64,000 nt of DNA from an uncultured Alphaproteobacteria bacterium (GTDB lineage: Bacteria; Pseudomonadota; Alphaproteobacteria; HIMB59; GCA-002718135). The notes under the pieces were generated by a model, which worked only from the letters and a program-made list of their open reading frames with translations, made no database searches and had not been told where the DNA came from. The position numbers and the translations under genes were made by a program. How positions within the stretch are numbered: position 1 is the first letter of the stretch; the number at the start of each line of letters is the position of its first letter. Below, one piece after another: positions 39,949 through 55,540 of this stretch. Location: NCBI GenBank assembly GCA_902514875.1, contig CABXSY010000004.1, positions 16,890 to 80,889 on the forward strand, in the 5' to 3' direction.

Positions 39949-40782
39949 TTACATTGAGATATCTCTACCAAACCATTCTTTAGTTATTTCAGCAGTAGTT
40001 CCATCTTTAGACATTTCTGCAATTGCAGCATTCCACATCTCTAAGATATCTGTATCTTCTTTTCTTACTGCTCCACCAACACCATCACCAAAGACTCCGC
40101 CAGAAAAAGTTGGACCAGTAAATGCAACATCAACACCACCATCAGATTCCATAAAATCAATAATTGATCCGACGTCAGCTAGAACTGCATCACATCTCCC
40201 TGCAGCTAAATCCAAATTATGATCATCAACCGCTTGATATAGTTTAACTTCGACTGCACCAGACATGTGTTTTTCTAAAAAGTTTTGGTGAATTGTTGAA
40301 GATTGAACACAGACAGTTTTACCATCCATTGCAGCAATTAACTGACCGATTGCAGCTTGTTCTTTTCCGCCTGCATTATTAAGATTAACTTTAGCCATAC
40401 CTGCAATATTTAAATTTGCTAAACCACTATTTTTTAAGACAGCAAATCTAGCACCATCAGTCATGTATCCATTAGTAAAATTAACTTTTTCTTTCCTTTC
40501 TTCAGTAATAGACATTCCAGCAATAATAATGTCGTATTTACCTTGAAGAAGAGCAGGTATTATACCATCCCAATCTTGAGTTACCCATTCACAAGTAACC
40601 CCCATTCGCTTACAAGCTTCGTTACCAAAATCTATTTCAGCACCCTCAAGCTCACCAGCTGAATTAAGATTATTCCATGGTGGGTAAGCACCTTCTGTAC
40701 CAATTCTTATTGTTTGTGAATTTGCAATTGAAGCAACTCCAAAAATACCAATTGATAATAAGTATATTAAAATTTTTTTCAC
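39949..40782 (-). CDS. Periplasmic amino-acid/opine ABC transporter substrate-binding protein (family 3, OccT/HisJ-like)
   Basis: Signal peptide, IRIGTEGAYPPWN start of the mature protein, GYDIIIAGMSIT-type motif (KYDIIIAGMSITEER). Strong AAGGAGG SD. Confidence 0.85.
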   Translation of the reverse strand: MKKILIYLLSIGIFGVASIANSQTIRIGTEGAYPPWNNLNSAGELEGAEIDFGNEACKRMGVTCEWVTQDWDGIIPALLQGKYDIIIAGMSITEERKEKVNFTNGYMTDGARFAVLKNSGLANLNIAGMAKVNLNNAGGKEQAAIGQLIAAMDGKTVCVQSSTIHQNFLEKHMSGAVEVKLYQAVDDHNLDLAAGRCDAVLADVGSIIDFMESDGGVDVAFTGPTFSGGVFGDGVGGAVRKEDTDILEMWNAAIAEMSKDGTTAEITKEWFGRDISM

Positions 40783-40859
40783 GTTTCCTCCTTGAAGAAG
40801 TATTTCTAAATTATAGGGGAACCATATAAGCTAAATAAAAAAAAACAAAATAAATTGTT

Positions 40860-41246
40860 TCAGACCTTGTTTCGTTTGCTCTTAATTAATACAAAAAACA
40901 AGCCAATTATTAGTAATATAAAAGGAAAACTCCAAAGAAAGACATTATTATAATTCATTAATGGTCTAAAAAGAATGTATTCACCATATCTTTCAACTAA
41001 AAATTTCTTAATATCTCGCTCACTTTCTCCAGCTTTCAACTTATTTTTAACTATTTTTTTAATATCATTTGAGAATTCTGCATCTGAGTCATAAATGCTT
41101 TGATTTTGACACGTCATGCATCGCAACTCTAAGGTTAATTTTTTTACTCTCTCATCAATATTTTCAACTGCAAAAATTTTTAAAGTAAAAAACATAAAAC
41201 TTAAAATTATTATATGTAAAAATTTATAGAAGCGGCTCAATTTCAT
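40860..41246 (-). CDS. ccmH: Cytochrome c-type biogenesis protein CcmH
   Basis: LRCMTCQNQSIYDSDA CxxC motif, C-terminal TM. Confidence 0.9.
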   Translation of the reverse strand: MKLSRFYKFLHIIILSFMFFTLKIFAVENIDERVKKLTLELRCMTCQNQSIYDSDAEFSNDIKKIVKNKLKAGESERDIKKFLVERYGEYILFRPLMNYNNVFLWSFPFILLIIGLFFVLIKSKRNKV

Positions 41247-41748
41247 TTTTTAAAATATCCATTGTTATCGGACCCATAAATTTATAGATAATCTCACCAT
41301 CCTCATTAATTAAATATGTTTCTGGTAGACCAAAAACACCAAATTCTAATGCAATTAAACCATCAGAGTCTACACCAACAAAATCATATGGGTTTCCATC
41401 ATCCTTTAAATATTTTTTTGCATCAGAAGTTGGATCTTTGTGGTTTAATCCCAACAAATATAGTTCAGGATATTTTTTACGTATTTCAAAAAAAAGTGGA
41501 TGCTCTATTTTACAAGGACTACACCAAGAAGCAAAAAAATTAATTAAGGTCTTCTTATTTTTTATATCTTTTGTTTTGATTATATCTTTTGCATTATACA
41601 AAGAACTACTTTCAAAAATAGGAACATCTTTATTTAAGAGCGCACTCGGTGGTTTATTAGGATCTTTACCACTTAATAAATAAACTAGTGAAAAAATACA
41701 TATGATTAAAAGTACTATTAATGGTGTTAAAATAAATATCCTGTTCAT
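41224..41748 (-). CDS. ccmG: Thiol:disulfide interchange protein CcmG/DsbE (ATG at 41748 forms an ATGA overlap with the ccmF stop; ORF opens at 41802)
   Basis: FFASWCSPCKIEHP, GVFGLPETYLI. Confidence 0.9.
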   Translation of the reverse strand: MNRIFILTPLIVLLIICIFSLVYLLSGKDPNKPPSALLNKDVPIFESSSLYNAKDIIKTKDIKNKKTLINFFASWCSPCKIEHPLFFEIRKKYPELYLLGLNHKDPTSDAKKYLKDDGNPYDFVGVDSDGLIALEFGVFGLPETYLINEDGEIIYKFMGPITMDILKNEIEPLL

Positions 41749-43607
41749 CTTCTTGAAACTGCTATTAAGCCTGAATACATCATTATTATCACTCCAAGCC
41801 ATATAAAACTAACAAATGGATTAATTAAAACTTTTACAAACCACTCATTATTTTTTTGATCACCAAGGATAAAATATATGTCCTTATTCCACTGATGTAA
41901 AATACCAGCTTCAGATGTAATCATCTTTGACACTGGATAATAATTTTTTCCTGCCTCTACTTCTTTTGATTGATTTTTTTCAATATCAAATATAAATTTT
42001 CCTCTTAAAGATTGATAATTAATTTGATTAGTTGTTTCTATTTTTTCAAACAAAACTGTTTTTCCATTTACATTAAATTTATCTCCCTCATTAAGGTTAA
42101 AATCTAGCTCATTTTGAAAAACACTAGAACAAGTGATACCAATTATAGCAATACCAACTCCAATATGTGCTACATGAGGATTAATTATTTTGAAAAATTT
42201 AAAGTTAATTTTAATTTTATAGGAAGAAAATATAGCAATAATTGAAGCCAATATTATCCAAAAACCTAAAAGTAATCCAACAAAACCCCATGTATTAAAA
42301 TCCAAAAAATATGATTGAAGTATAACTAAAACACTTAAGATAATAAAAGCTAGAACATATTTTTTTGAATTATTTATCTTATTTGTTTGCCAGGATAAAA
42401 TTGGCGCAATACTCATTAATAAAAAACCAGGGATCATTATAGGAATTACTGTTGAATTAAAATAAGGGCCTCCAACCGATATTCTCTTATTATACAAAAC
42501 TTCAATTATAATTGGGTATATAGTTCCTAAAAGAATAGTTAAGGTAGCTATAATCATTAAAATATTATTTATTACAAGCGCTGAAACCTTATTGATAAAT
42601 AACAAGTTTAAAGTATTTGATTTTTTTGGTTCTTTTAACAAAAAAACTAAAAAACCAAATCCAGTTACAATAAAAAAAATTAGTAATATAAATATGCCTC
42701 TGGATGCATCTGCTGCGAATGAATGTACGCTTGTTAAAATACCAGATCTTACCAAAAATGTTCCAAAAACACTTAATGAAAAGCAAAGAATTGATAAAAA
42801 AACTATCCATTTTTTAATAGCTTGTTCACCTCTTACCATCATGAGTGAATGAACTAATGCAAGTCCAGCAATCCAAGGCATCAACGAAATATTTTCAACT
42901 GGATCCCAAAACCACCAACCACCCCATCCTAATTCATAATATGCCCAATATGAACCTAGGGCTATTCCACCAGTTAAAAAAGTCCAACTAATTAATGACC
43001 ATTTTTTAGCAACATACAGCCATTCATCATCTGTATTTTGAAATAAACCAGCTATTGCAATACTGAAAACTATAGAATAACCAACATAACCTGCATATAA
43101 AATTGGAGGATGAACAGCCAACCCAGGATCTTGTAAAATAGGATTTAAACCTAAACCCTCATTTACTAATATTGAATTAACGAGAAAAGGATTAGAGGTA
43201 AAAATTATAAATAGGCCAAACAAAGTATGAAGAAAAGCTTGAATAATCAAAGTTAATTTTTGAAAGTTATCCTCTATATTTTTAGTAAAAGAAAAAAAGA
43301 AGCTAAAAATAGATAATATACAAAGCCACAGAAGCATCGAGCCTTCATGATTCCCCCAAGTTCCTGAAATTTTATATACTAATGGTTTATTTGAGTGAGA
43401 GTTTTGAAAAACATTATAATTTGAAAAATCAGATACCACATAGGCATACATTAGTGAAAAAAAAGATAACAAAGTCAATAATGAAGAAAAGCGGATGAAT
43501 AAATTAAATTTCTGTTTTTTAAATTTAAATATGTATCTAGATAAAAATAAGTAAAAATTAATTCCTATGGCAAAAACTAAGCTTAAAAAACCAACTAATG
43601 AACTCAT
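41745..43607 (-). CDS. ccmF: Cytochrome c heme lyase subunit CcmF
   Basis: 620-aa polytopic protein, WGGWWFWDPVEN WWD motif. Confidence 0.95.
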   Translation of the reverse strand: MSSLVGFLSLVFAIGINFYLFLSRYIFKFKKQKFNLFIRFSSLLTLLSFFSLMYAYVVSDFSNYNVFQNSHSNKPLVYKISGTWGNHEGSMLLWLCILSIFSFFFSFTKNIEDNFQKLTLIIQAFLHTLFGLFIIFTSNPFLVNSILVNEGLGLNPILQDPGLAVHPPILYAGYVGYSIVFSIAIAGLFQNTDDEWLYVAKKWSLISWTFLTGGIALGSYWAYYELGWGGWWFWDPVENISLMPWIAGLALVHSLMMVRGEQAIKKWIVFLSILCFSLSVFGTFLVRSGILTSVHSFAADASRGIFILLIFFIVTGFGFLVFLLKEPKKSNTLNLLFINKVSALVINNILMIIATLTILLGTIYPIIIEVLYNKRISVGGPYFNSTVIPIMIPGFLLMSIAPILSWQTNKINNSKKYVLAFIILSVLVILQSYFLDFNTWGFVGLLLGFWIILASIIAIFSSYKIKINFKFFKIINPHVAHIGVGIAIIGITCSSVFQNELDFNLNEGDKFNVNGKTVLFEKIETTNQINYQSLRGKFIFDIEKNQSKEVEAGKNYYPVSKMITSEAGILHQWNKDIYFILGDQKNNEWFVKVLINPFVSFIWLGVIIMMYSGLIAVSRR

Positions 43608-44044
43608 TTATATTTTTTATTCCAATAACCTGTATCTTTCAGATCTTCTTTTATTGATGCAGGCATATAATTTTCATCATGTTTTGCAAAAACATTGTTT
43701 GCATTAAAAATATTTTTATCAACAAAAGCACCCTCTATCACTGCACCTTGCCCTTCTCTAAATAAATCAGGAAGAATGCCTTTGAAAGTAACAAGTATAG
43801 ATGCTTTTTCATCAGTAATTTTAAATTTAAATGAACTTGAAGAAATTTTATTAAAACTATTATTTTCTACAAAACCGCCTATTCTTATTACTTTATTTAT
43901 TATGATATCTGATTTATCAATTTCAGATGGTGTATAAAAATACGACACATTTTCTCTTGTATTATATAAAATAAGTAAGACTGCACTTAGTATAATTACT
44001 AAAGTAAGCATTATAAATAGCAATCTCTGAAATCGTAGACTCAT
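43604..44044 (-). CDS. ccmE: Heme chaperone CcmE
   Basis: N-terminal anchor, IRIGGFV, VFAKHDENYMP heme-binding His. Confidence 0.93.
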   Translation of the reverse strand: MSLRFQRLLFIMLTLVIILSAVLLILYNTRENVSYFYTPSEIDKSDIIINKVIRIGGFVENNSFNKISSSSFKFKITDEKASILVTFKGILPDLFREGQGAVIEGAFVDKNIFNANNVFAKHDENYMPASIKEDLKDTGYWNKKYK

Positions 44045-44145
44045 TTATTTTTTATTCTTCTAAGTTTTAAGTAACTAAAAAATAATAACAAAAAAATTAA
44101 AAGAAAGGCAGTGATATAAGATCCTAAAATATACCAAAAATACAT
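44041..44145 (-). CDS. ccmD: Heme exporter protein CcmD (34 aa; below the ORF-track size cut-off)
   Basis: Own translation: MYFWYILGSYITAFLLIFLLLFFSYLKLRRIKNK. Single TM plus basic tail. Stop overlaps the ccmE ATG as ATGA. Sits between ccmC and ccmE. Confidence 0.75.
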   Translation of the reverse strand: MYFWYILGSYITAFLLIFLLLFFSYLKLRRIKNK

Positions 44146-44206
44146 AGTTTCTAATATCAAAAATACTTAGGAATGATACTTAATCCAATGGACTAAAAGT
44201 CACAAA

Positions 44207-44905
44207 TTAACTTAAGTAAGATTTTCTTGAAATTATCTCTGTTTTTATTCTTAAGATGGCTATGGCTATTCCAATCATTATAAATGCAAATGTCATAATA
44301 ATTAAAGGCGTCATCATTGAAAGATCAATACTGGGTTTTGACAATTTACTTATTGTTGCTGGTTGATGTAGTGTATTCCACCAATCTACAGAAAATTTAA
44401 CTATTGGCAGGTTTACTGATCCAACAAGAATAAATATTGCGACAACTTTTTCTCTTACAATCCTATTTTCAAAAGATAAATTTATAAAAATAATAATTAG
44501 ATAAATAATAAAAAGAATTGCAACAGAAGTTAAACGAGCATCCCATACCCACCAAGTACCCCACATTGGCTTTCCCCATAAAGATCCACTTACTATACAT
44601 ATTAAAGTAAAAACCGCCCCTATTGGAGCTACTGCTGTATTAAAAATAAAACCAAATGGTATTCTAAAAGCAAGTGCCAAAATACTATAAATAGTCATTA
44701 TTGCATATGTTAGTAAAGCTAACCACGCACTCGGAACATGTACATACATTATTCTTACAGTTGATCCTTGTTGATAATCATCCGGTGATAGATAAATAGC
44801 AAACAATAATCCTAAGGCAAATAATACGATAGATAAGATTAGTATTGGTTTAAATATATAATCAGCTACTTCATTAAATTTACTTGGATTAACTAAGAAC
44901 TTCAT
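44207..44905 (-). CDS. ccmC: Heme exporter protein CcmC
   Basis: WGKPMWGTWWVWDARLTS WWD motif. Confidence 0.94.
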   Translation of the reverse strand: MKFLVNPSKFNEVADYIFKPILILSIVLFALGLLFAIYLSPDDYQQGSTVRIMYVHVPSAWLALLTYAIMTIYSILALAFRIPFGFIFNTAVAPIGAVFTLICIVSGSLWGKPMWGTWWVWDARLTSVAILFIIYLIIIFINLSFENRIVREKVVAIFILVGSVNLPIVKFSVDWWNTLHQPATISKLSKPSIDLSMMTPLIIMTFAFIMIGIAIAILRIKTEIISRKSYLS

Positions 44906-44906
44906 A

Positions 44907-45578
44907 CTAACTATTTTCTAATGAAAGTTTAAGACATAATCCGCTTGCCCAGGGATTTATAGCAAAAACTATTAATAATATTCCAAATAATATATTTATA
45001 AGAGAATTAAAGTTTTCTTCCATATTAATAATACCTACAGAAAAAATAATAATTGGAACGCTAAAGACCATAACTATGACACTACCCAGTAGAAAGTTTC
45101 TTTGATTCATTAAGTTCATAGAAGATGAAATTGAACCTAGGCAGGATAGAGTAAGTGATCCTATTCCAAAACTTGTAAATAAGTAAAACAGTTTATCATT
45201 TGGAATATTTAGTAAAATGCAGGCAATCGGTATTGATAATAAAAAAGGTACCTGTACAAAGAAAAAATGTGAAAAAGTTTTTAAAATAGTAATTAAACCA
45301 AAGCTAAACCCATTTAAATGTATAATCAAAAGATTGCCATTCTCAAAGTCATCTTGATAAAATTTTCTTAGAGATAAGGTTGAGCTTAATAGTAATAATG
45401 TCCACACTATAGCTACTCCTATTATAGAAATTGTTTCCTTATCTGGCCCAATAGAGAAAATAAAAATAAAAATTGAAACAAAAAAGAAAATTATATTTGT
45501 TAAAATATCTTGAAAGCCACTCATGTTTAATTTGTATTCTCTGTAGTAAAAGAAAATAATTTTATTTAAAAATTTCAT
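44907..45578 (-). CDS. ccmB: Heme exporter permease CcmB
   Basis: 6-TM ~220-aa protein between ccmA and ccmC. Confidence 0.85.
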   Translation of the reverse strand: MKFLNKIIFFYYREYKLNMSGFQDILTNIIFFFVSIFIFIFSIGPDKETISIIGVAIVWTLLLLSSTLSLRKFYQDDFENGNLLIIHLNGFSFGLITILKTFSHFFFVQVPFLLSIPIACILLNIPNDKLFYLFTSFGIGSLTLSCLGSISSSMNLMNQRNFLLGSVIVMVFSVPIIIFSVGIINMEENFNSLINILFGILLIVFAINPWASGLCLKLSLENS

Positions 45579-45583
45579 TATTT

Positions 45584-46189
45584 TTATAATTGTATTTCTT
45601 CTGTCACGTAAATCCCTGGATTTTGATGTGAACTAAAAATTATAGAACCTTCTTTTGCACAATGATCTGCAAAAGTCTGTTTTAATAATTCAATTGAATC
45701 TTCATCTAAATTTGAAAGAGGCTCATCTAAAATCCAAACATTTTTATTTTCTATAATTAATCTTAAAAATTCTAATTTTTTAGTTTCTCCAAAAGATATT
45801 TCTCCTACTTTTTTATTTAGGTATTTATCTAATTTTAAGGTTTTTAATGCTGTTTCAATTTGAGCATCATTAATTTTTGAAATAAAAAATTTTTTCCAAA
45901 TATTAATATTATCTTTGATGGTTAATTTTTTTAAGCTTGATGTTGTGTCTGCAATATATGTAACATGGTTATAGAAATCATATAAATTTTTATTTAATAA
46001 CTTCCCTTTCCAATATATTGATCCAAATGAAGGTTCTATTATATTTAATAATGCCTTTAATAGTGTAGTTTTGCCTGAACCATTTTTACCTTTTAAGATG
46101 GTAATATTTCCAGGCGTAAGTGAGAGATTAACATTCTCAAATATTTTTTTATCTAATCTCTCTACTGACAAATCTTTAACAATTATCAT
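45584..46189 (-). CDS. ccmA: Heme exporter ATP-binding protein CcmA
   Basis: GKNGSGKTTLLK Walker A, ISFGETKKLEF signature-like motif, WILDEP Walker B. Confidence 0.9.
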   Translation of the reverse strand: MIIVKDLSVERLDKKIFENVNLSLTPGNITILKGKNGSGKTTLLKALLNIIEPSFGSIYWKGKLLNKNLYDFYNHVTYIADTTSSLKKLTIKDNINIWKKFFISKINDAQIETALKTLKLDKYLNKKVGEISFGETKKLEFLRLIIENKNVWILDEPLSNLDEDSIELLKQTFADHCAKEGSIIFSSHQNPGIYVTEEIQL

Positions 46190-46231
46190 TATTAAGATCT
46201 AATTATTTTTTGATTTAAAACAATAAAAAAA

Positions 46232-46248
46232 ACGGGGCAGAACCCCGT
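46232..46248 (-). terminator. Rho-independent terminator after the Lys-rich repeat gene
   Basis: ACGGGG-CAGAA-CCCCGT hairpin. An A8 run on plus becomes a T-run after the stem on the minus strand (also T5 on plus). Confidence 0.8.
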
Positions 46249-46323
46249 CTTTTTATCTTTTGCTTAAAAAGATAAGAAAAAGAAAACTTTATAAAAAAGC
46301 TTTCATGAAAATTTAAAGAGATA

Positions 46324-46467
46324 CTATCTCTTCTTTTTTTTCTTTGCGGCTTTTTTCTTTTTCTTAGGAGCAGCTTTTTTCTTTTTCTTAGGAGCTGCTT
46401 TCTTTTTTTTCTTAGGAGCTGCTTTTTTCTTTTTCTTTGGAGCAGCTTTCTTTTTCTTCTTAGCCAT
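46324..46467 (-). CDS. 47-aa hyper-basic repeat protein MA(KKKKKAAP)4KKKKKAAKKKKKR (histone H1-like/Lys-rich)
   Basis: Internal ATG at 46467 preceded by AAGGAG (46479-46474) with a 6-nt spacer. Followed by a terminator. The longer ORF-track start at 46557 has no such signal. Confidence 0.65.
   Translation of the reverse strand: MAKKKKKAAPKKKKKAAPKKKKKAAPKKKKKAAPKKKKKAAKKKKKR
46330..46461 (-). repeat. 24-nt tandem repeat (about 5.5 units) encoding KKKKKAAP
   Basis: Direct reading: CTTAGGAGC(A/T)GC(T)n-CTTTTT(C/T) units repeated head-to-tail. Confidence 0.9.
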
Positions 46468-46764
46468 AAAATACTCCTTGTATTTTGTTACCCCGGAGGA
46501 ACCTCCCTCCATTATCACTAAGGCGATAATTATAAAAGGCTGAGTATTTATTCCCAAAACTTACGGTTAAAGTCAACAATATACCTATATTTTAAAATTA
46601 ATTTGAATTTAAATTTAATTACAGTTTTTTAAAAATCTTAATATAAAAAATTAATAACTTATTTTTTTATTTTTTCGCAGAAAACTAATAATAAATAAAC
46701 ATTTTGCTATACAAAATTTTATCTTCATACTATTTAATTATTATAATAATTTATTAAGTTTATC

Positions 46765-49407
46765 ATGAAAAATACAAATTCTTTTAATTCAGAAGATACA
46801 ATTGAAATAAATCATAAAAAATTTAAATATTTTGATTTAAATAAGGCGGCTGAGTATTTTCAGACTGATATTAGTAAAACTCCAATTTCAATTAAAATAA
46901 TAATTGAAAATCTTCTTAGAAATGAAGATGGAGAGAATATTACTAAAGACATGATTACTAAAGTTTTCTCTTCTTTAAAACAAACTAATAAAAGTAGAGA
47001 AAAAATTGAAATATCTTTCTTCCCAACACGTGTATTAATGCAGGATTTTACAGGTGTGCCTGCTGTTGCAGACCTTGCAGCCATGAGAAATGCATTAAAA
47101 TCAAGAGGGATTGAACCAAAAAAAATAAATCCTTTATCCAGGGTTGATCTGGTTATTGATCACTCTGTTATGGTAGATAACTATAAAGACAATAATGCAC
47201 TAAGAGAAAATGTTAGAAAGGAATTTGATAGAAACAAAGAAAGATATGAATTTCTAAAATGGGGACAAAGTTCTTTTGATAACTTTTATCTTGTGCCTCC
47301 TGGTGCAGGAATTTGCCATCAAGTAAATCTAGAAAATATCGCTAAGACTGTGTGGTTGAAGGAAATTAATAAACAAAAATATTTATTTCCAGACTCTGTG
47401 GTAGGAACTGATAGTCATACAACAATGGTCAATTCTCTCTCTGTTTTAGGATGGGGGGTTGGAGGAATAGAAGCTGAGGCAGCTATGTTAGGTCAACCAA
47501 TTTCAATGAATATTCCAGATGTAATTGGTTTTGAGCTTAATGGTTCCTTGAAAGAAGGAATTACAGCAACAGATTTAGTTTTATCTATTACTAAAATTCT
47601 TAGAGACAAAGGCGTTGTAGGTAAATTTGTAGAATTTTATGGAAAAGGTTTAAAGAATTTATCTTTAGCAGATAGGGCTACAATTTCTAATATGGCTCCA
47701 GAATATGGTGCAACGTGTGGATTTTTTCCAACGGATGAAGAAACTATTAATTATCTTAAATTAACTGGTAAAGAAAATGAGCATCTTAATATCGTTGAAG
47801 AATATTCAAAAAAACAAACTCTTTGGGCAGATGATAATTATTCGCCAGTTTTTTCTGACAAAATATTATTAGATTTAGATACAGTCGAACCCACTCTAGC
47901 TGGCCCAAAAAGACCTCAAGATAAAATTCTTTTAAAAGAAGTTCCAAATGAATTTAGCAAGATAGACAACAAAAAAATTATAAATCAGAATGAATTAAAT
48001 ACAGGTGATGTTGTAATAGCAGCTATTACTAGTTGTACTAACACATCTAATCCTAATGTTATGATTGCAGCAGGACTAGTTGCTAAAAAAGCTATTGATT
48101 ATGGTTTAAAGGTAAAACCTTGGGTCAAGACAAGCTTAGCCCCAGGTAGTAAAGTTGTTAGTGACTATCTAGACAAAGCAGGATTAACAGAATATCTTGA
48201 TATCTTAGGATTCAATACCGTTGGCTATGGATGCACAACTTGTATTGGCAACTCTGGTCCCTTAGATCAGTGGGTATCTAATGAAATTAAAAAAAATAAC
48301 TTAACTGTTTGTTCAGTTTTATCTGGAAATAGAAATTTTGAAGGCAGAGTACACCAAGAAGTGAAAGCAAATTTTCTTGCCTCACCTCCTCTTGTTGTCG
48401 CATATGCTATAGCAGGTAATATTAATGTTAACCTTACAACTGATTCCCTTGGTAAATCTAAATCTGGAAAAGAGATATTTTTAAAAGACTTATGGCCTTC
48501 AAATCAAGATGTCAATCAAACACTTAACGAGTGTTTAACTCCAAAAATGTTTAAAGAAAGATATAAAGAAATTTATAAAGGTGATGATAACTGGAAATCA
48601 ATTAACAGTTCCAGAAATACCACTTACGACTGGAACGATACTAGCACTTATATAAAGCACCCACCTTTCTTTGATGTGCAAAATAAATTTGATTTAAATG
48701 ATATAAAAGAGGCAAGAATATTAGCATTGCTTGGTGATAGTGTAACAACAGATCATATTTCTCCTGCTGGAAGTATCAAGGAAGACAGTCCAGCTGGCCA
48801 CTACTTAACAGACAGACAAATTAATTCTAGAAATTTCAATTCCTATGGTTCAAGGCGTGGTAATCATGAAATTATGATGAGAGGAACATTTGCAAATATA
48901 AGAATCAAAAATCAAATTTTAGATAATGTTGAGGGAGGCTATACTAAATCATTTATCTCAAATAAACAAACTTCGATTTATGAAGCAGCGCAAGAGTATA
49001 TAAAAAACAACATTGATACAGTAATAATAGCAGGTAAGGAATATGGTACTGGATCATCAAGGGATTGGGCAGCTAAGGGCACAAGACTATTAGGAGTAAG
49101 AGCGGTTATTGCTGAAAGTTTTGAGAGAATTCATAGATCAAATTTAATTGGAATGGGAGTTTTACCTCTTGAATTCACCCAAACAGAAAACAAAGAAAAT
49201 CTAAATATTAAAGGCGAAGAAACTATAACTATATCTGGTTTAGCTGAACTAAAGCCTGGAATAATTCTTAATTGTGAAATTAATGCAGCAAAAACTAAAG
49301 TTATAAGTTTAAAGTGTAGAATAGATACAAACAAAGAATTAGAATACTACAAAGCTGGAGGAATTTTAAACTACGTTTTAAATGAAATAATATCAGAAGC
49401 CGCTTAA
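46765..49407 (+). CDS. acnA: Aconitate hydratase A
   Basis: 880 aa, IRP/AcnA-type. ITSCTNTSNP, GCTTCIGNSG and SGNRNFEGR Fe-S ligand motifs. Confidence 0.96.
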   Translation: MKNTNSFNSEDTIEINHKKFKYFDLNKAAEYFQTDISKTPISIKIIIENLLRNEDGENITKDMITKVFSSLKQTNKSREKIEISFFPTRVLMQDFTGVPAVADLAAMRNALKSRGIEPKKINPLSRVDLVIDHSVMVDNYKDNNALRENVRKEFDRNKERYEFLKWGQSSFDNFYLVPPGAGICHQVNLENIAKTVWLKEINKQKYLFPDSVVGTDSHTTMVNSLSVLGWGVGGIEAEAAMLGQPISMNIPDVIGFELNGSLKEGITATDLVLSITKILRDKGVVGKFVEFYGKGLKNLSLADRATISNMAPEYGATCGFFPTDEETINYLKLTGKENEHLNIVEEYSKKQTLWADDNYSPVFSDKILLDLDTVEPTLAGPKRPQDKILLKEVPNEFSKIDNKKIINQNELNTGDVVIAAITSCTNTSNPNVMIAAGLVAKKAIDYGLKVKPWVKTSLAPGSKVVSDYLDKAGLTEYLDILGFNTVGYGCTTCIGNSGPLDQWVSNEIKKNNLTVCSVLSGNRNFEGRVHQEVKANFLASPPLVVAYAIAGNINVNLTTDSLGKSKSGKEIFLKDLWPSNQDVNQTLNECLTPKMFKERYKEIYKGDDNWKSINSSRNTTYDWNDTSTYIKHPPFFDVQNKFDLNDIKEARILALLGDSVTTDHISPAGSIKEDSPAGHYLTDRQINSRNFNSYGSRRGNHEIMMRGTFANIRIKNQILDNVEGGYTKSFISNKQTSIYEAAQEYIKNNIDTVIIAGKEYGTGSSRDWAAKGTRLLGVRAVIAESFERIHRSNLIGMGVLPLEFTQTENKENLNIKGEETITISGLAELKPGIILNCEINAAKTKVISLKCRIDTNKELEYYKAGGILNYVLNEIISEAA

Positions 49408-49412
49408 TCTTA

Positions 49413-51950
49413 ATGTCTAATAAAGATGAAAACTTATTAGCTATTCTTGGGCCTACTAATACTGGAAAAACCTATACAGCGTTTGAAAAACTTTTCTCAT
49501 ATTCTACAGGCATTTTTGGTTTTCCACTAAGATTACTAGCTAGAGAGAACTATGATAAAGCAGTAAAAAGAATTGGACTTAACAATGTAGCATTAATAAC
49601 AGGTGAAGAAAAAATTCTTCCAAAAGAAGCAAAATATTTTTTTTGTACTGTTGAGTCAATGCCTAAAAATATTTCTGTTGATTGCATAATAATTGATGAA
49701 GTTCAATTGGCAGCAGATTATGAAAGAGGACATATCTTTACTGATAGGATTTTAAATTTAAGGGGAAATTTTATAACTATCTTTTTAGGATCACTAAATA
49801 TTGAAAAAATACTTAAAAAAATTTATCCAAATATTATAATAGAGAAAAAAAAAAGATTTTCTCAACTTTCATTTCTGAGAAAACAAAATTTTTCTAAACT
49901 CGAACCAAGATCAGCTATAATTGCATTTAATATTAACAAAGTTTATGAAATTGCTGAAAATATTAGAACACATAAAGGTGGAACTGCTGTAGTTTTAGGT
50001 TCACTAAGTCCCAGAACTAGGAATGCTCAAGTAGAAGTATATGAAAATAAAAACGTAGATTATCTAGTAGCAACAGATGCTATTGGAATGGGCTTAAATC
50101 TTAATATTAATCATATAAGTTTTTCTGCACTAGAAAAATTTGATGGGAGATATAATCGTAATCTTGCTCCAAATGAACTAGGTCAAATTGCAGGTAGAGC
50201 AGGTAGATACAAACAAGATGGAACTTTTAGTCATACTAAAGAAGCAGGAAATTTAGATCCATTGATTATACAACAGATAGAAACACACAACTTTGATAAT
50301 ATTCAAAAAATTTATTGGAGAAATAGTGATTTAGATTTTAATTCAATAGATGCATTATTATCATCATTAAAAAAATATCCCATTCATAACTATTTTATAC
50401 ATAAAAAAAATGCTTTAGACGAACTTAATCTTCGTAATTTAATTAATGATAGTGAAGTAAAGAAATTACTTATATCAAAAAAAAATTTAAAGTTATTGTG
50501 GGAGGTATGTCAGGTTCCAGATTTTGAAAAACTTTTTAATGATAGTTATTTATTACTTTTAAAAGATATATATCTTATTTTAATTAATAATAAATATAAT
50601 ATACCTGAAGAATGGATTGATAAGAAGATCGGTAAACTTAATAATTTTGGCGTAGGTATACCTGAGCTTTCAATTAAAATTTCTCAGATACGAACATGGA
50701 CATACATATCAAATAATCATAACTGGTTAAAAAATACATACTATTGGAAAGAAAAAACTCAGCAGATAGAAAATGAATTATCTGATCAACTACATAATAG
50801 TCTTACAAAAAAATTTATAGATTATTCTTCAAAATTTTTTATAAGACAAGAGAAATTTCAAAATATTCAAGATATACTTAAAAAAAATAACAACGAAATT
50901 TTTTTAGATGATAATAAATATGGTGTTATAAAAGGTTTTGATCTTATTGAGGGCAAAAAAATATTTTCACAATCTCTTTTTTCGATTAGTAATATAAAAA
51001 AAACAGTAAGAAATATGATTAATGAAAAAGTAGATAGTTTTCTAAGTGCCCCACTTGATTCAATTAAGTTTGGTGACATCAGTAATTCTAAAATAAAAGA
51101 TGAAACTTTTATTTATTGGGGAGATGAGAGTATTGGTAAATTAAAGAAAGGTAAATCGATATATAGACCTATAGCTGAGGCTTTGAATTCTGAGTATTTA
51201 TCTTCAGAAAATAAATTATTGATTTCTGCTAAGCTACAAAAATGGTTAGAGAATGAAATAAATGATAACCTATATCCTTTAAATAAAAACCTAGATGAAG
51301 GTATTAATTCTGAAATTAGAGCAATTGCTTTTAATTGTATTGAAAATTTTGGAAATTACCCAGTAGAAAAATTCAAAGGTATTCTCAAAGGAATCACTCA
51401 AGATAGTAAGTTGCAGCTTACCAAATTAGGAATAAGGATAGGAGCAAAATATTTTTTTACACCAAGTCTATTAAAGAAAAAACCTCTTGAAATTTGTGCA
51501 ATCCTATGGAAAACTTTTTATGGAAAGGACATTGACAATTATCTACCACTTCCACAAAATGGTAGAGTATCATTTACATCAGAAATTAAAATACCTGATC
51601 ATTATTGGAAATCAATTGGATATATTAATATTAAAAATTTTTTATTCAGAATAGATGTGTTTGAAAAAATTTTTTTTCTTGCAAGACAAAAAATTAAAAA
51701 AGGTCCTTTTCTAGAATCTTCAGACCTTATGAATCCTATTGGATGCAACAGTGAACAGTTAAAAGATATTATGAAATTTTGCGGTTACGATTATGTTACT
51801 ATTTCTGATGAAAAAAAATTATTTTTCTTAAATAATAAGAAAAAAGAAACAAAAAAAAATAATAGTAAAAATAAAAACAAAAAAAATAATGACAATACTT
51901 TAAAGAAAGATCCCAATTCTCCCTTTGCAGTTTTAGAGAAACTTCTTTAA
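49413..51950 (+). CDS. SUV3-like ATP-dependent (RNA) helicase with long C-terminal extension
   Basis: GPTNTGKTYTA Walker A, IIDEVQL, VATDAIGMGLNL, QIAGRAGR. Lys/Asn-rich tail. Confidence 0.8.
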   Translation: MSNKDENLLAILGPTNTGKTYTAFEKLFSYSTGIFGFPLRLLARENYDKAVKRIGLNNVALITGEEKILPKEAKYFFCTVESMPKNISVDCIIIDEVQLAADYERGHIFTDRILNLRGNFITIFLGSLNIEKILKKIYPNIIIEKKKRFSQLSFLRKQNFSKLEPRSAIIAFNINKVYEIAENIRTHKGGTAVVLGSLSPRTRNAQVEVYENKNVDYLVATDAIGMGLNLNINHISFSALEKFDGRYNRNLAPNELGQIAGRAGRYKQDGTFSHTKEAGNLDPLIIQQIETHNFDNIQKIYWRNSDLDFNSIDALLSSLKKYPIHNYFIHKKNALDELNLRNLINDSEVKKLLISKKNLKLLWEVCQVPDFEKLFNDSYLLLLKDIYLILINNKYNIPEEWIDKKIGKLNNFGVGIPELSIKISQIRTWTYISNNHNWLKNTYYWKEKTQQIENELSDQLHNSLTKKFIDYSSKFFIRQEKFQNIQDILKKNNNEIFLDDNKYGVIKGFDLIEGKKIFSQSLFSISNIKKTVRNMINEKVDSFLSAPLDSIKFGDISNSKIKDETFIYWGDESIGKLKKGKSIYRPIAEALNSEYLSSENKLLISAKLQKWLENEINDNLYPLNKNLDEGINSEIRAIAFNCIENFGNYPVEKFKGILKGITQDSKLQLTKLGIRIGAKYFFTPSLLKKKPLEICAILWKTFYGKDIDNYLPLPQNGRVSFTSEIKIPDHYWKSIGYINIKNFLFRIDVFEKIFFLARQKIKKGPFLESSDLMNPIGCNSEQLKDIMKFCGYDYVTISDEKKLFFLNNKKKETKKNNSKNKNKKNNDNTLKKDPNSPFAVLEKLL

Positions 51951-51972
51951 TAGTATTTTAAAAGGTAAAAAA

Positions 51973-52419
51973 TTGATAAATTTATTAAAAAATGTTTTAA
52001 ATTATAAAAAATCTAAGGATGATAAAGAAGATACTAAAAATCTTGAATTAATTTGTGGATTAATGATTGAAGCTGCATATACCGATGGAACAATAGGAGA
52101 AAACGAGTTAAATAAAATTAAATTTAGTTTGATTAATGTTTTCGATGAAAATGAAGAAGAAGTTGACTTGGTTTTAAATGAGGCAATAAAAAATAAAAAT
52201 AACTCTAAGTCTCTTCACTATTATACATCTTTTATTAATAAAAATTTTGAAAGTGATAAAAAACTTCTTCTTATAGAAGCTTTATGGGAAATTGTGTTAT
52301 CTGACGGAGAAATTCATGATTTTGAGTCAAATCTTATTAGAAGGCTTGCTGGATTACTTTATATTTCTGATGTAAACTCTGGAAATGCAAGAAAAAGGGC
52401 TCTAAATAAAAATTCATAA
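51973..52419 (+). CDS. TerB-family (tellurite-resistance-like) protein, TTG start
   Basis: [34 protein letters not shown], a typical TerB motif. Confidence 0.7.
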
Positions 52420-52423
52420 TGTT

Positions 52424-52756
52424 ATGACATATGTAGTCGATGAAAAGTGTATTAAATGTAAACACATGGATTGCGTAGATGTTTGTCCAGTGGATTGTTT
52501 TTACGAAGGTGAAAATATGCTCGTAATACATCCTGATGAATGTATTGACTGCGGTGTATGTGAGCCAGAATGTCCAGCTGAGGCAATTTTATCAGACACA
52601 GAGGACGGAATAGAAAAATGGGCTGAAATTAATAGAAAATATTCAGAAATTTGGCCTAATATAAATGAAAAAAAAGACCCCCCGCCAGATGCAGAAAAAT
52701 GGCAAAATGTTAAAGATAAATATAATAAGTATTTTAGTGAAAAACCAGGAAGATAA
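52424..52756 (+). CDS. fdxA: 7Fe ferredoxin (3Fe-4S plus 4Fe-4S)
   Basis: [18 protein letters not shown] ... [12 protein letters not shown]. Confidence 0.93.
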
Positions 52757-53260
52757 ATGAAAACAAAAAAAAATTCAGAATTAAAAATAGGAGAAATTGT
52801 AGTTTATCCCAAGCATGGTGTAGGTGAAATTGTAAAAATAGAAACTATGGAAATATCAAATATTAAAACAAGTTTTTATGTTGTCAAAATGGAGCAATCC
52901 AAATTAACAATAAGAGTCCCACTCGATAAAAAAAACGAGGTTGGCTTAAGAAAAATTTCTTCAAAAAAAATTATAGAAGAAGTTTATTCTACATTAAAGT
53001 TAAAACCAAAAATAAGAAGAATAATGTGGAGTAGAAGAGCACAAGAATACGAAACAAAAATTTTCTCTGGTGATCCAATTAAAATTTCTGAAGTAGTTAG
53101 AGATTTATATAGAAAAAGTAGTCAAGCAGAACAATCTTATAGTGAGAGACAAATGTTTCAGGTCGCAATAGAACGTTTAGCAAGAGAAGTAGCTGCAGTT
53201 GAAAAAACAGATTATTTTCAATCAACAGAAAAAATTGAACAAATATTAAGTACAAAATAA
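52757..53260 (+). CDS. carD: CarD family transcriptional regulator
   Basis: VVYPKHGVGEIVKIE N-terminal Tudor-like motif, ~167 aa. Confidence 0.9.
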   Translation: MKTKKNSELKIGEIVVYPKHGVGEIVKIETMEISNIKTSFYVVKMEQSKLTIRVPLDKKNEVGLRKISSKKIIEEVYSTLKLKPKIRRIMWSRRAQEYETKIFSGDPIKISEVVRDLYRKSSQAEQSYSERQMFQVAIERLAREVAAVEKTDYFQSTEKIEQILSTK

Positions 53261-53264
53261 TATT

Positions 53265-54077
53265 TTGGATAAAGTCAGTAATTTTGTAGAATTAAAAGAA
53301 ACAAGCAAAATATGGGCTATTGGCTCAATACATTCAAATTTAAAATCATTTAGTGCAATAAAAAAATATATTTTAAATCATTTTAAAAATAGTGATAAAT
53401 TAATTTTTCTTGGCAATGTAATTGGATTAGGAGATAGCTCAAAAGAGACTCTATCTAGCGTTATTGATTTAAGATTTAAATTAATGTCTAAATTCAAACT
53501 CAAACCTGAGTCAATTGTATTTTTACGAGGTGCCCAAGAAGAGATGTTTAGCAAGTTATTGCAATTACAACTTGCCCCTAACCCAATAGAAATTCTTGAA
53601 TGGATGTTTGAGCATGGAGTTAACAAAACAATCGAATCATATGGTTTTTCAGAGAATGAGATTAAAAGTTTAGCTTCTTCAGGAACTATTAATATATCGA
53701 AATGGACATCTTCCTTGAATAAAACTATAAAGGATAATCCTGGACATATTGAGTATTTTTTAAATTTAAAGCATGCTGCATACTCTCATACAAAAAAAAT
53801 ATTATTTGTTAATAGGGGGGTTGATATAACTAGACCTCTATCAGCTCAAAATGATTGTTTTTGGTGGGGCTTTCAAAATTTTTCAACAATTCAAAATCCT
53901 TATAATACATTTTTGAGGATTGTTAGAGGATATGAGTCTGAACATTTAAATCAATCTCAAAATTCAAAAAATAATGTAGTTTGTACTTTATTTAAACAGC
54001 CTCTATCTAACAAAAATGTTTTATGTGGAATATTTACAGAAAATGGAGAAATTTTAGATTTATTTGAAAATAATTGA
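53265..54077 (+). CDS. Metallophosphoesterase-fold (PPP/ApaH-like) protein with substituted catalytic residues; TTG start
   Basis: Motif-by-motif alignment: GSIHS(GDxHG), GNVIGLG(GDxxDRG), RGAQE(GNHE), FVNRG(HAG), RGYE(GHT). Confidence 0.55.
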   Translation: MDKVSNFVELKETSKIWAIGSIHSNLKSFSAIKKYILNHFKNSDKLIFLGNVIGLGDSSKETLSSVIDLRFKLMSKFKLKPESIVFLRGAQEEMFSKLLQLQLAPNPIEILEWMFEHGVNKTIESYGFSENEIKSLASSGTINISKWTSSLNKTIKDNPGHIEYFLNLKHAAYSHTKKILFVNRGVDITRPLSAQNDCFWWGFQNFSTIQNPYNTFLRIVRGYESEHLNQSQNSKNNVVCTLFKQPLSNKNVLCGIFTENGEILDLFENN

Positions 54078-54108
54078 TCTATTTTAATTATTTTACGTAT
54101 AAATAATT

Positions 54109-54975
54109 ATGACATCAAAAAATTTTTTCTTTTCTAACAATCTAATAGAACTATCAAAAAAAGCATCAATTCTTGAAAAAGATGAGGAATTTGAGTTAAT
54201 AAATGATTGGAGAGACAACAAAACTCCCCGATCACTTCAAAAAATTCTTAATTCATATCTTCGTTTAGCCGTTTCTTATGCAAGAAGATATTCCAGTTAT
54301 GGCTTACCAATTGATGATTTAATTCATGAGGGAGTTCTTGGCATAATGCACGCACTTGAAAAATTTGATACTTCTAAAGATTTTAGACTTTCAACCTACG
54401 CTTCATGGTGGATTAGAGCATCAATACAAGATTATATTTTAAAGAACTGGTCAGTAGTTCGTACTGGATCTACAGCATCTCAAAAAGCACTATTTTTTAA
54501 TCTAAAAAAAATCAAACAACAGATTAATGATGTGTCAAGAGAATTCATGGGTCAAAATGAAATAAACAAAGTTTCTAATATGCTTAATGTCAAATCTATT
54601 GATGTTCAAAATATGGAGTCTAGGCTTACTGGGGGAGATGTTCATTTAAATCAAAAAGTTGATCATGATACAGAAAATGACTTAATGAGTTTACTCGCTG
54701 ATGAAAGACAAAATCCTGAAGAAACTTTTGAAGAATTTAACGATAAAAATATTAAAAAAGATTTTATTAATAAAGCTATAGATACTTTAAATGAAAGAGA
54801 AAAGATCATTATTCGTTTAAGAAAATTTAGAGAAAAGAGTATAACATTGGACGAACTAGGTCAAAAGTTAAAAATTAGTAAAGAGAGAGTTAGACAAATA
54901 GAAACGAAAGCATTAGATAAACTTAAAAAATCTCTATTAGAAATTTCAAATCAAAATAAAGAATTTTTTATTTGA
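54109..54975 (+). CDS. rpoH: RNA polymerase sigma-32 heat-shock factor
   Basis: RpoH box QKALFFNLKK; regions 2 and 4 present. Confidence 0.92.
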   Translation: MTSKNFFFSNNLIELSKKASILEKDEEFELINDWRDNKTPRSLQKILNSYLRLAVSYARRYSSYGLPIDDLIHEGVLGIMHALEKFDTSKDFRLSTYASWWIRASIQDYILKNWSVVRTGSTASQKALFFNLKKIKQQINDVSREFMGQNEINKVSNMLNVKSIDVQNMESRLTGGDVHLNQKVDHDTENDLMSLLADERQNPEETFEEFNDKNIKKDFINKAIDTLNEREKIIIRLRKFREKSITLDELGQKLKISKERVRQIETKALDKLKKSLLEISNQNKEFFI

Positions 54976-55537: not shown

Positions 55538-55540
55538 AAA

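What the first reader, a model, noticed from the sequence alone, without database searches (positions are those of the whole stretch)
46324..46467. Stand-alone 47-aa poly-lysine repeat protein MA(KKKKKAAP)4KKKKKAAKKKKKR
The gene is a perfect 24-nt tandem repeat with a canonical AAGGAG SD and a GC-rich terminator, lying between the ccm operon and acnA. The product is about three-quarters lysine and resembles the AKKA/KKAAP repeats of eukaryotic histone H1 tails and bacterial H1-like proteins (chlamydial Hc2, Pseudomonas AlgP and Bordetella BpH3 types). In a genome with a reduced regulatory repertoire, such a protein could act as a nucleoid compactor, or as an RNA- or ribosome-binding polycation. 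It would also be a repeat-length-variable locus through slippage.
Basis: partly seen in the sequence, partly recalled or inferred. Interest (0 to 1): 0.62.

Follow-up and report, generated by a model that had tools for sequence, protein, structure and literature searches.

The report
Unannotated, highly expressed poly-lysine micro-protein gene
A tiny gene that no database annotates encodes a 47-residue peptide made almost only of lysine, alanine and proline; it is conserved, under protein-level selection, and is by far the most abundant transcript of this marine bacterium's 64-kb region, so it most likely makes an abundant polycation that coats DNA or RNA.

Summary
The ORF is real: 46324..46467 (-) encodes MA(KKKKKAAP)4KKKKKAAKKKKKR, with an AAGGAG SD, its own promoter and a strong terminator, between ccmA and acnA. 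Two corrections apply. The 24-nt repeat is not perfect (19-23 of 24 identical between units), and lysine is 64%, not about 75%. The host belongs to the HIMB59/AEGEAN-169 lineage (former SAR11 clade V).

All 87 related loci that could be read through carry an intact ORF of 40-82 aa. Among 28 distinct 58-codon alleles, variable sites by codon position are 1/1/26. Other clades swap K for R. AAG is 50% of Lys codons against 13% in background ORFs, placed so that A-runs stay at 8 or fewer.

In four marine metatranscriptomes the unique 5'UTR has contig depth 110-3900, against mostly 0-30 (at most about 75) for neighbouring genes. RNA starts near 46520, while DNA metagenomes cover the promoter evenly.

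Pelagibacter Ia genomes carry an analogous 24-27-aa gene that is equally strongly expressed. None of the 11 exact sequences looked up is in a 15-billion-protein collection, and no Pfam, NCBIfam, Rfam or PDB match exists.

Function is inferred only: an abundant polycation binding nucleic acids. An H1-tail-like nucleoid role is favoured (about 0.45) over a bS22/eL41-like ribosomal role (about 0.27).

The parts
46324..46467 (-). ORF of 47 codons plus TAG: MA(KKKKKAAP)4KKKKKAAKKKKKR. Mass 5.3 kDa, pI about 11.9, 31 basic residues.
   Evidence: Intact in all 87 related loci that could be read through. Variable sites by codon position are 1/1/26. AAG/AAA placement limits A-runs.
46474..46479 (-). 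Shine-Dalgarno AAGGAG, 6 nt before the ATG.
   Evidence: Invariant in 65 aligned upstream regions.
46495..46510 (-). 5'UTR hairpin GGAGG(GAGGUU)CCUCC, holding an SD-like and an anti-SD-like pentamer.
   Evidence: Predicted in the single fold and the consensus fold. The pairs are almost invariant, so there is no covariation test.
46512..46523 (-). RNA 5' ends; candidate transcription start.
   Evidence: Adapter junctions lie at about 46523 (X37) and 46512 (X35), and an X31 contig of depth 263 ends at 46519. RNA depth is zero upstream of 46530 in four runs, while DNA metagenomes cover 46518-46560 evenly.
46529..46557 (-). Promoter-like TTGGGA (46557-46552), 17 nt, TATAAT (46534-46529).
   Evidence: 10 of 12 matches. 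The -35 is invariant, and the -10 is TATAAT or TATGTT across clades. Its position fits the mapped 5' ends.
46558..46576 (-). Invariant block TTGACTTTnnnCGTAAGTT directly upstream of the -35; role unknown (UP element, activator site or second promoter).
   Evidence: The motif occurs once per genome in 65 genomes.
46511..46530 (-). Inverted repeat ATTATCAC / GTGATAAT straddling the RNA 5' end.
   Evidence: 91% of cells are paired, 4 pairs have changes on both sides, and the loop is 4-10 nt. The 5' arm appears untranscribed. Unexplained.
46255..46304 (-). Two 3'UTR hairpins (46304-46282 and 46274-46254) ahead of the terminator.
   Evidence: -31.7 kcal/mol, z = -5.5, no shuffle folds as well. Conserved in relatives. 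Covered by an X31 RNA contig down to 46263.
46226..46254 (-). Intrinsic terminator (AAAAAGACGGGG-UUC-UGCCCCGUUUUUUU), usable on both strands. The ccmA ATG follows 36 nt later at 46189.

Best explanation
Shown: this is a genuine, monocistronic, very highly transcribed protein-coding micro-gene. A promoter (TTGGGA-17-TATAAT) starts an mRNA of about 290 nt near 46520. The mRNA has a 5' hairpin and SD, the 47-codon ORF, and three 3' hairpins ending in an intrinsic terminator, a layout expected to give a stable mRNA. The Lys codons alternate AAG and AAA so that no long poly(A) run forms; this fits selection for faithful translation and replication of a poly-lysine sequence. Inferred: the product is a 5.3-kDa peptide with 31 basic and no acidic residues (net charge about +31), with no signal peptide or hydrophobic segment evident on inspection (no predictor was run), expected to be disordered, and built only from K, A and P. 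It stays in the cytoplasm and works by charge. It binds the phosphate backbone of nucleic acids non-specifically, as the K/A/P tail of linker histone H1 and the K/A/P tails of bacterial H1-like proteins do, and so neutralises and compacts them. In an ultra-small cell where chromosomal DNA is a very large share of all polyanion, the main target would be the nucleoid. The protein would then be a minimal, tail-only, linker-histone-like nucleoid compactor. Repeat number sets the charge per molecule and can drift in frame.
For: Gene and protein reality: the ORF is intact in all 87 related loci that could be read through, and every length difference is a multiple of 3. Among 28 distinct 58-codon alleles, variable sites by codon position are 1/1/26, with 25 synonymous-only codon columns against 2 with amino-acid change. 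Other clades replace K with R (KRKKAAP), which keeps the charge. AAG makes up 0.50 of Lys codons against 0.13 in the window's long ORFs; the longest A-run averages 6.3 against 12.1 when the gene's own codons are shuffled. SD and ATG are invariant. Expression: unique 5'UTR depth is 2500-3900, 224-313, 110-193 and 263 in four metatranscriptomes. Other bins between 40668 and 60000 are at most about 100, and the neighbouring genes mostly 0-30, at most about 75. The only other strongly covered gene is a solute-binding protein at 1427/67/0/0. In DNA metagenomes the same 5'UTR is at most about 6x its flanks, and the promoter is covered there but not in RNA. Oligo-dT libraries also hold the sequence, which fits an A-rich sense RNA. 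Function by analogy: the composition is restricted to K/A/P. This is the alphabet of HBHA's polyanion-binding KKAAPA/KKAAAKK repeats (PMC3293801), of PAKKA tails of mycobacterial Ku (PMC3553676, abstract listed), and of tail-only H1-like proteins of kinetoplastids, Toxoplasma and bacteria (PMC9769792). Repeat-number polymorphism resembles that of chlamydial Hc2 (PMC2848022, abstract listed).
Against: There is no direct evidence of the peptide itself, of DNA binding or of localisation. No profile or sequence search links it to any H1-like family, and low complexity makes homology untestable. The analogous Pelagibacter gene (24-27 aa, no proline) has the size and charge of small ribosomal proteins such as bS22 and eL41. 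A peptide of about +31 charge would also bind rRNA, mRNA or polyphosphate. Contig depth is a crude measure of expression and is inflated over the repeat. The argument that DNA dominates the polyanion pool in such small cells rests on general knowledge, not on data obtained here.
Confidence: 0.45

Rival explanations
1. It is a ribosome-bound micro-protein. The peptide, or its conserved N- and C-terminal parts, sits in an rRNA pocket as bS22, eL41, mS38 or Thx do, and the repeats lie on the rRNA surface. The high transcript level reflects ribosome stoichiometry.
For: Pelagibacter Ia genomes have an analogous 24-27-aa ORF (74% K/R) with the same gene layout and equally extreme RNA coverage. Stand-alone polybasic ORFs of 18-27 aa with conserved leaders occur in Planctomycetes, Verrucomicrobia, Phycisphaerales, Woeseiaceae and CPR bacteria. 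Precedent: Borrelia bS22 was unannotated, is about 30 aa and 61% K/R, has an abundant transcript, and its authors expect it to be found in more bacteria (PMC10618245).
Against: phmmer finds bS22-to-mS38 similarity in the PDB but nothing for this peptide or the Pelagibacter one at E<=10, and NCBIfam and Pfam give no hit. The peptide lacks the Met, His and Leu residues that recur in the bS22 sequences matched. It has a proline every 8 residues, and its length ranges from 40 to 82 aa within one lineage, which is unusual for a protein filling a fixed pocket. It is not linked to ribosomal genes.
Confidence: 0.27
2. It is a polycation for another partner: a polyphosphate or other anionic polymer counter-ion, a driver of RNA/protein condensates, or an exported cationic (antimicrobial or surface-binding) peptide.
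For: The extreme charge would bind any polyanion. HBHA's K/A/P repeats bind sulfated glycans outside the cell (PMC3293801). A membrane protein with a (PKKKKAA)5 tail exists (P0012).
Against: No signal peptide or dedicated exporter is evident from inspection of the sequence and flanking genes (no predictor was run). In Pelagibacter the gene is not next to any transporter. Constitutive, very high expression in several ocean data sets fits a housekeeping intracellular role better.
Confidence: 0.08
3. It is a regulatory leader ORF. Translation of 30 Lys codons senses lysyl-tRNA or ribosome supply and controls read-through of the terminator into ccmABCDEF, which starts 36 nt later.
For: Layout: a short ORF rich in one codon, then hairpins, then a terminator, then ccmA on the same strand with no room for a classical promoter. 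Weak Rfam similarity to leader families exists, well below their thresholds.
Against: In Pelagibacter the homologous or analogous gene ends convergent to carD with no downstream gene. The peptide sequence itself is under purifying selection with K-to-R swaps, which a codon sensor does not need. No antiterminator alternative was found, and the stop codon lies 70 nt before the terminator. RNA coverage ends at the terminator. Lysine has no evident link to cytochrome c maturation.
Confidence: 0.04
4. The abundant molecule acts as an RNA. The purine-rich (ARN)n tract would titrate an RNA-binding protein such as Hfq or S1, and the ORF is incidental.
For: The RNA is very abundant and has protective hairpins at both ends. 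AAG/AAA repeats fit the A-R-N motif bound by Hfq's distal face (general knowledge).
Against: The codon-position pattern 1/1/26, indels only in multiples of 3, the invariant SD and ATG, and charge-preserving K/R replacements are all properties of a translated frame. No Rfam family matches.
Confidence: 0.04

Closest known systems
C-terminal tail of linker histone H1 and tail-only 'H1-like' proteins (kinetoplastid H1, Toxoplasma TgH1-like of 91 aa, bacterial H1-like proteins)
   Same: Composition is almost entirely K, A and P in short repeats, with no globular domain and small size. These proteins are highly basic and chromatin-associated, and TgH1-like also associates with ribosomal proteins (PMC9769792).
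   Different: The window protein is shorter (47 aa) and much denser in lysine (64%, against roughly 40% for H1 tails, from general knowledge). No homology can be shown, no S/TPKK motifs are present, and DNA binding is untested.
Bacterial lysine-rich repeat proteins: chlamydial Hc2 (HctB), Pseudomonas AlgP, Bordetella BpH-type, and the K/A/P tails of mycobacterial HBHA, Hlp and Ku
   Same: All have K/A/P repeat units; HBHA has KKAAPA x3 and KKAAAKK x2. They bind polyanions (DNA, heparan sulfate) by charge. Repeat number varies between strains, e.g. Hc2 at 165-237 aa (PMC2848022, listed).
   Different: Those proteins are well over 100 aa where a size is known here (Hc2 165-237 aa; HBHA about 198 aa), or the repeats are tails on folded domains. 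Here the repeat is the whole protein. Pfam and NCBIfam searches gave no hit. Expression here looks constitutive and extreme rather than stage-specific.
Small polybasic ribosomal proteins bS22 / mS38 / eL41
   Same: They are very small and at least 60% K/R. They are often unannotated and have abundant transcripts (PMC10618245). The Pelagibacter version (24-27 aa) matches them in size.
   Different: There is no sequence similarity (against the positive control). The peptide has prolines every 8 residues, variable length, and lacks the Met, His and Leu residues that recur in the bS22 sequences matched.
Attenuation leader peptides (his, thr, phe leaders)
   Same: A short ORF dominated by one codon lies upstream of a terminator and an operon.
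   Different: The peptide sequence is conserved, no antiterminator was found, there is no downstream gene in Pelagibacter, and the transcript is far more abundant than the operon behind it.

Membership tests
Bacterial histone-H1-like lysine-rich proteins (Hc2/HctB, AlgP, BpH-type; Pfam HC2 and related) | Low-complexity K/A/P (or K/A) short tandem repeats making up most of the protein | tested here: met
   K 63.8%, A 23%, P 8.5%, with four exact KKKKKAAP units.
Bacterial histone-H1-like lysine-rich proteins (Hc2/HctB, AlgP, BpH-type; Pfam HC2 and related) | Recognised by the family's sequence profile | tested here: not met
   Pfam returned 0 families at E<=10 and NCBIfam 0. HMMER-based homologue searches found only mis-called copies of the same gene. 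Composition filters make this a weak test.
Bacterial histone-H1-like lysine-rich proteins (Hc2/HctB, AlgP, BpH-type; Pfam HC2 and related) | In-frame repeat-number polymorphism between strains | tested here: met
   31 protein variants of 40-82 aa in 88 loci (one cut by its locus end), with all length differences in multiples of 3.
Bacterial histone-H1-like lysine-rich proteins (Hc2/HctB, AlgP, BpH-type; Pfam HC2 and related) | Binds and condenses DNA; associated with the nucleoid | not testable with these tools
   This needs EMSA or compaction assays, fractionation or imaging.
bS22 / mS38 / eL41 ribosomal micro-proteins (DUF1713 / COX24_C) | Sequence similarity to the bS22/mS38 basic helix | tested here: not met
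   phmmer against the PDB gave 0 hits at E<=10 for the window peptide and the Pelagibacter peptide. A bS22 query recovers bS22 and mS38 chains. NCBIfam gave no hit.
bS22 / mS38 / eL41 ribosomal micro-proteins (DUF1713 / COX24_C) | About 24-35 aa forming a single helix of fixed length | tested here: not met
   The window protein is 47 aa with 4 prolines, and relatives range from 40 to 82 aa. The Pelagibacter analogue (24-27 aa, no Pro) would meet the size criterion. No structure prediction was possible.
bS22 / mS38 / eL41 ribosomal micro-proteins (DUF1713 / COX24_C) | Stoichiometric component of purified ribosomes | not testable with these tools
   This needs ribosome purification with MS or cryo-EM.
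Transcription-attenuation leader peptides | A terminator/antiterminator alternative coupled to ribosome position, controlling a downstream operon | tested here: not met
   Three independent hairpins were found and no competing pairing. The stop codon lies 70 nt before the terminator. The Pelagibacter version has no downstream gene.
Known RNA families (Rfam 15) | Match at the family's gathering score | tested here: not met
   The best match was wcaG at 28.3 bits against a threshold of 42, driven by the terminator. Related loci gave only tRNAs.

The most novel reading that the evidence does not exclude
This gene may be one face of an unrecognised, widespread class of stand-alone polybasic micro-proteins of 18-82 aa, starting MAK[KR]4AA. 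They are invisible to gene callers and appear in HIMB59, in SAR11 proper, and apparently in Planctomycetes, Verrucomicrobia and CPR bacteria. In the two most abundant oligotrophic alphaproteobacterial lineages of the ocean they rank among the most abundant transcripts. If so, some of the most numerous cells on Earth rely on a previously unseen major cellular component: either a minimal bacterial linker-histone analogue or a new ribosomal/rRNA-bound peptide, possibly related to the alphaproteobacterial ancestry of mitochondrial mS38.
Probability: 0.3. Interest if true: 0.88.

Novelty: new variant of a known kind. Interest (0 to 1): 0.72.

Why it matters
HIMB59/AEGEAN-169 and SAR11 are among the most abundant bacteria in the sea and have streamlined, nitrogen-frugal proteomes. 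A nitrogen-rich poly-lysine peptide whose mRNA outnumbers that of a solute-binding protein therefore points to a major cellular component that annotation and trypsin-based metaproteomics have missed. It offers a simple, testable candidate for how ultra-small cells neutralise and pack nucleic acids. It also shows that low-complexity micro-ORFs are dropped systematically: none of the 11 exact sequences looked up was among 15 billion proteins. Finally, it gives a natural example of how a poly-lysine gene avoids poly(A) runs through AAG/AAA alternation.

Tried and rejected
(1) Profile and homology searches returned nothing or only mis-called or frameshifted copies of the same gene (Pfam, NCBIfam, two billion-scale HMMER searches, PDB phmmer). 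Low-complexity filters make them uninformative.
(2) Exact look-ups of 11 variants, including upstream-start versions, found none in the collection.
(3) An N-terminal extension from the upstream in-frame ATG (MEGGSS...) is rejected. That ATG is lost in several genomes, a TAA precedes the real ATG in the distant clade, and RNA 5' ends lie at or after it.
(4) A promoter made of TTGACT (46576) with GAATAA, suggested by analogy with Pelagibacter, is not supported: RNA coverage upstream of 46530 is zero although DNA coverage is even.
(5) The weak Rfam hits (wcaG, L20 leader, Phe leader) are terminator and U-tract artefacts well below threshold.
(6) The leader-peptide model for ccm is rejected on the Pelagibacter context.
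(7) The inverted repeat at the TSS was compared from memory with Fur and DnaA boxes. The arrangement does not fit, and the variable spacing (4-10 nt) argues against a dimer operator. It is left unexplained.
(8) An apparent resemblance of the upstream block to the 16S 3' domain falls on non-conserved positions and was dropped.
(10) Literature searches for the peptide strings and for SAR11 small or lysine-rich proteins found no report.

Full report
**Observation**

AAGGAG sits 6 nt before the ATG. A 13-pair G+C-rich terminator with a U-tract lies at 46254-46226. Pfam confirms the neighbours. ccmA, ccmC and ccmE lie downstream on the same strand, with the ccmA ATG at 46189, only 36 nt after the terminator. 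Aconitase lies divergently upstream.

Two details are overstated. The 24-nt repeat has 87% matches by TRF, and its four KKKKKAAP units share 19-23 of 24 bases, differing only at synonymous positions. Lysine is 30 of 47 residues (63.8%).

**Host**

The AcnA N-terminus is 95% identical to that of SAG AG-337-I02 but only about 60% identical to Pelagibacter. AG-337-I02 is a GTDB genus of order HIMB59, also known as AEGEAN-169 or former SAR11 clade V (PMC8692485). 'SAR11' is therefore only loosely correct.

**Conservation and coding evidence**

- Every acnA locus from relatives with at least 69% AcnA identity and enough upstream sequence carries a K/R-rich ORF at the same place.
- A conserved upstream motif, TTGTTGACTTTNNNCGTAAGTTTTGGGAA, occurs once per genome in 65 species-level genomes.
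- In 88 loci the motif is followed by the ORF; all 87 that are not cut by the locus end are intact. There are 31 protein variants of 40-82 aa, and every length difference is a multiple of 3.
- More distant clades use KRKKAAP or KKKKRAAP, which keeps the charge.
- Among 28 distinct DNA alleles of the common 58-codon form, variable sites fall 1/1/26 on codon positions 1/2/3. Twenty-five codon columns vary only synonymously and 2 change the residue.
- AAG makes up 50% of Lys codons in these genes, against 13% in the window's long ORFs.
- The codons are ordered so that the longest A-run averages 6.3 (maximum 8). The expectation is 12.1 if the same codons are shuffled and 16.8 with background codon usage. 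I read this as selection against slippage and ribosome sliding on poly(A); that interpretation is an inference from published work on lysine-encoding poly(A) tracts.
- The upstream in-frame ATG (MEGGSS...) is not conserved and is closed by a TAA in the distant clade, so MAKKKKK is the start.

**Transcription**

Logan contigs of four marine metatranscriptomes were laid on the locus.

| Run | Unique 5'UTR depth (46470-46499) |
|---|---|
| X25 | 2500-3900 |
| X37 | 224-313 |
| X35 | 110-193 |
| X31 | 263 |

- Coverage stops abruptly. Adapter junctions lie at about 46523 (X37) and 46512 (X35), and an X31 contig ends at 46519. Depth upstream of 46530 is zero in all four runs.
- In 667-nt bins, the gene's bin reads 12803/1476/4689/1340 across the four runs. 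Over 1-20000 and 40001-60000, the only other high bin is a solute-binding-protein gene (39949-40782) at 1427/67/0/0. All other bins are at most about 100.
- Four DNA metagenomes serve as a control. The promoter region and 3'UTR are covered evenly at 8-80. The 5'UTR is at most about 6x the flanks, because it is conserved across strains. The repeat itself is inflated 10-50x by cross-mapping.
- The RNA excess of the unique 5'UTR over neighbouring genes is therefore real, of the order of 100-fold. The RNA start near 46520 is also real.
- This start fits the promoter TTGGGA-17-TATAAT at 46557-46529. Its -35 is invariant, and its -10 is TATAAT or TATGTT in all clades.
- Oligo-dT libraries also hold the sequence, as expected if the A-rich strand is the RNA.
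- The 3'UTR folds into two hairpins plus the terminator (z = -5.5). It is covered to 46263 in X31. No coverage continues into ccmA, although contigs cannot prove absence.

**Relatives outside the lineage**

They have a TTGACA-type promoter-like site, a 5' hairpin (ACGAATC-loop-GATTCGT), an SD, and a 24-27-aa ORF MAKRRKKAAKKKTKKKAKKKAKKRRRK followed by a strong terminator.

- All 24 such loci are intact. Their changes are mostly K-to-R swaps, and A-runs stay at 7 or fewer.
- The gene lies convergent to carD and downstream of a fadD-like acyl-CoA ligase ORF, not near ccm.
- In the same four metatranscriptomes it peaks at 5300-21663, 1175-7262, 351-1526 and 456-1936. The fadD-like ORF reads about 0-150. 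An adapter junction falls at the base of the 5' hairpin.
- Intermediate forms of 33-68 aa exist in other SAR11-like MAGs.
- Stand-alone polybasic ORFs of 18-26 aa with conserved leaders and terminators also occur in Planctomycetes, Phycisphaerales, Verrucomicrobia, Woeseiaceae and CPR bacteria. Whether these are related or convergent cannot be decided from such sequences.

**Annotation status**

- None of 11 exact variants is present among about 15 billion proteins.
- The only similar entries are frameshifted or wrong-start calls of the same gene.
- Pfam, NCBIfam, Rfam and PDB searches give nothing.
- Literature searches found no description.

**Mechanism**

What is shown is a conserved, translated-frame-constrained, very abundant small mRNA. 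What is inferred is the product's action. The peptide has 31 basic and no acidic residues (net charge about +31), contains only K, A and P plus an initial M and a final R, and shows no hydrophobic segment or signal peptide on inspection (no predictor was run). Such a peptide can hardly act other than electrostatically on polyanions.

Its alphabet and repeat style match several known polyanion binders. These are H1 C-terminal tails, tail-only H1-like proteins (PMC9769792), and the bacterial K/A/P repeats that bind DNA or sulfated glycans (HBHA KKAAPA/KKAAAKK, PMC3293801; Ku PAKKA and Hc2 polymorphism, abstracts listed).

I favour a nucleoid counter-ion/compactor role (0.45) for three reasons:

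- the composition is strictly K/A/P;
- repeat number varies freely in frame;
- in such small cells DNA is a major share of cellular polyanion (general knowledge, not measured here).

The main rival (0.27) is a ribosome- or rRNA-bound peptive of the bS22/eL41 type. It is motivated by the Pelagibacter form's size and by the Borrelia precedent of an unannotated, 61% K/R, highly transcribed bS22 (PMC10618245). Against it, a bS22 query finds mS38 in the PDB while these peptides find nothing. The prolines and the variable length also fit a fixed pocket poorly.

The leader-peptide, RNA-only and other-polyanion readings are minor, for the reasons given under the rivals.

**Unexplained features**

- An inverted repeat, ATTATCAC/GTGATAAT, straddles the RNA 5' end. 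It has compensatory changes and a variable loop, although its 5' arm appears untranscribed.
- An invariant block lies upstream of the -35.
- The almost invariant GGAGG/CCUCC hairpin next to the SD could modulate translation, but there is no covariation to test it.

**Verdict**

Its biochemical role remains an inference.

Noticed in passing
L196:4412-4495 (-), with 23 other Pelagibacteraceae loci (e.g. L150, L151, L173, L186): Pelagibacter Ia-type genomes carry an unannotated 24-27-aa ORF MAKRRKKAAKKKTKKKAKKKAKKRRRK. It has its own promoter-like site, a 5' hairpin, an SD and a terminator. It is intact in all 24 loci and extremely covered in four metatranscriptomes.
   Followed up: partly
L147, L154, L156, L166, L172, L184, L189 (Planctomycetes); L170, L182, L197 (Phycisphaerales); L183, L199 (Verrucomicrobia); L168, L227 (Woeseiaceae); L158, L171 (CPR): These loci hold stand-alone 18-26-aa polybasic ORFs (e.g. 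MAKKKKKAAKKVAKKKKGHG) with strongly conserved, structured leaders and downstream hairpins. No Rfam family covers the representatives scanned: L154, L189, L170, L199, L227 and L158.
   Followed up: partly
L196:3509-4351 versus window 52757-53260: CarD of the Pelagibacter Ia-type genome has an N-terminal extension of about 95 aa rich in K and V (KKVKKVVKKKVKPVKK...). The window's CarD (167 aa) lacks it. Both match the CarD Pfam domains.
   Followed up: no
window 46189-46226: The ccmA start codon lies only 36 nt after the terminator of the poly-lysine gene, on the same strand. This leaves no room for a classical promoter, so the ccm operon may depend on terminator read-through or on a promoter overlapping the terminator.
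   Followed up: no
window 46511-46530: The inverted repeat ATTATCAC/GTGATAAT overlaps the -10 and TSS. It has compensatory changes and a 4-10-nt loop in 65 genomes, although the 5' arm seems untranscribed. Its function is unknown.
   Followed up: partly
window 46558-46576: The block TTGACTTTnnnCGTAAGTT directly upstream of the -35 is invariant across all clades and occurs once per genome. It may be an activator or UP site, or a second promoter.
   Followed up: partly
window 39949-40782 (-): A family-3 solute-binding protein gene is the only other strongly covered gene in the RNA runs (bin depth 1427 in X25). This is the pattern expected for an oligotroph.
   Followed up: no
proteins P0012, P0004, P0006: P0012 is a small membrane protein with a (PKKKKAA)5 C-terminal tail. 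P0004 and P0006, whose source is labelled 'merc', carry repeated AKRKKKAAPKKKKKAAPKKKKKAAKKRR modules. The same repeat module therefore occurs in other contexts, or A-rich bacterial mRNA has been captured in poly(A)-selected data.
   Followed up: no
protein P0003, from a 734,670-bp contig: One relative's copy is recorded as a 114-aa product because the frame shifts near the 3' end of the lysine tract. This is either an assembly error in an A-run or a rare genuine frameshift allele.
   Followed up: no
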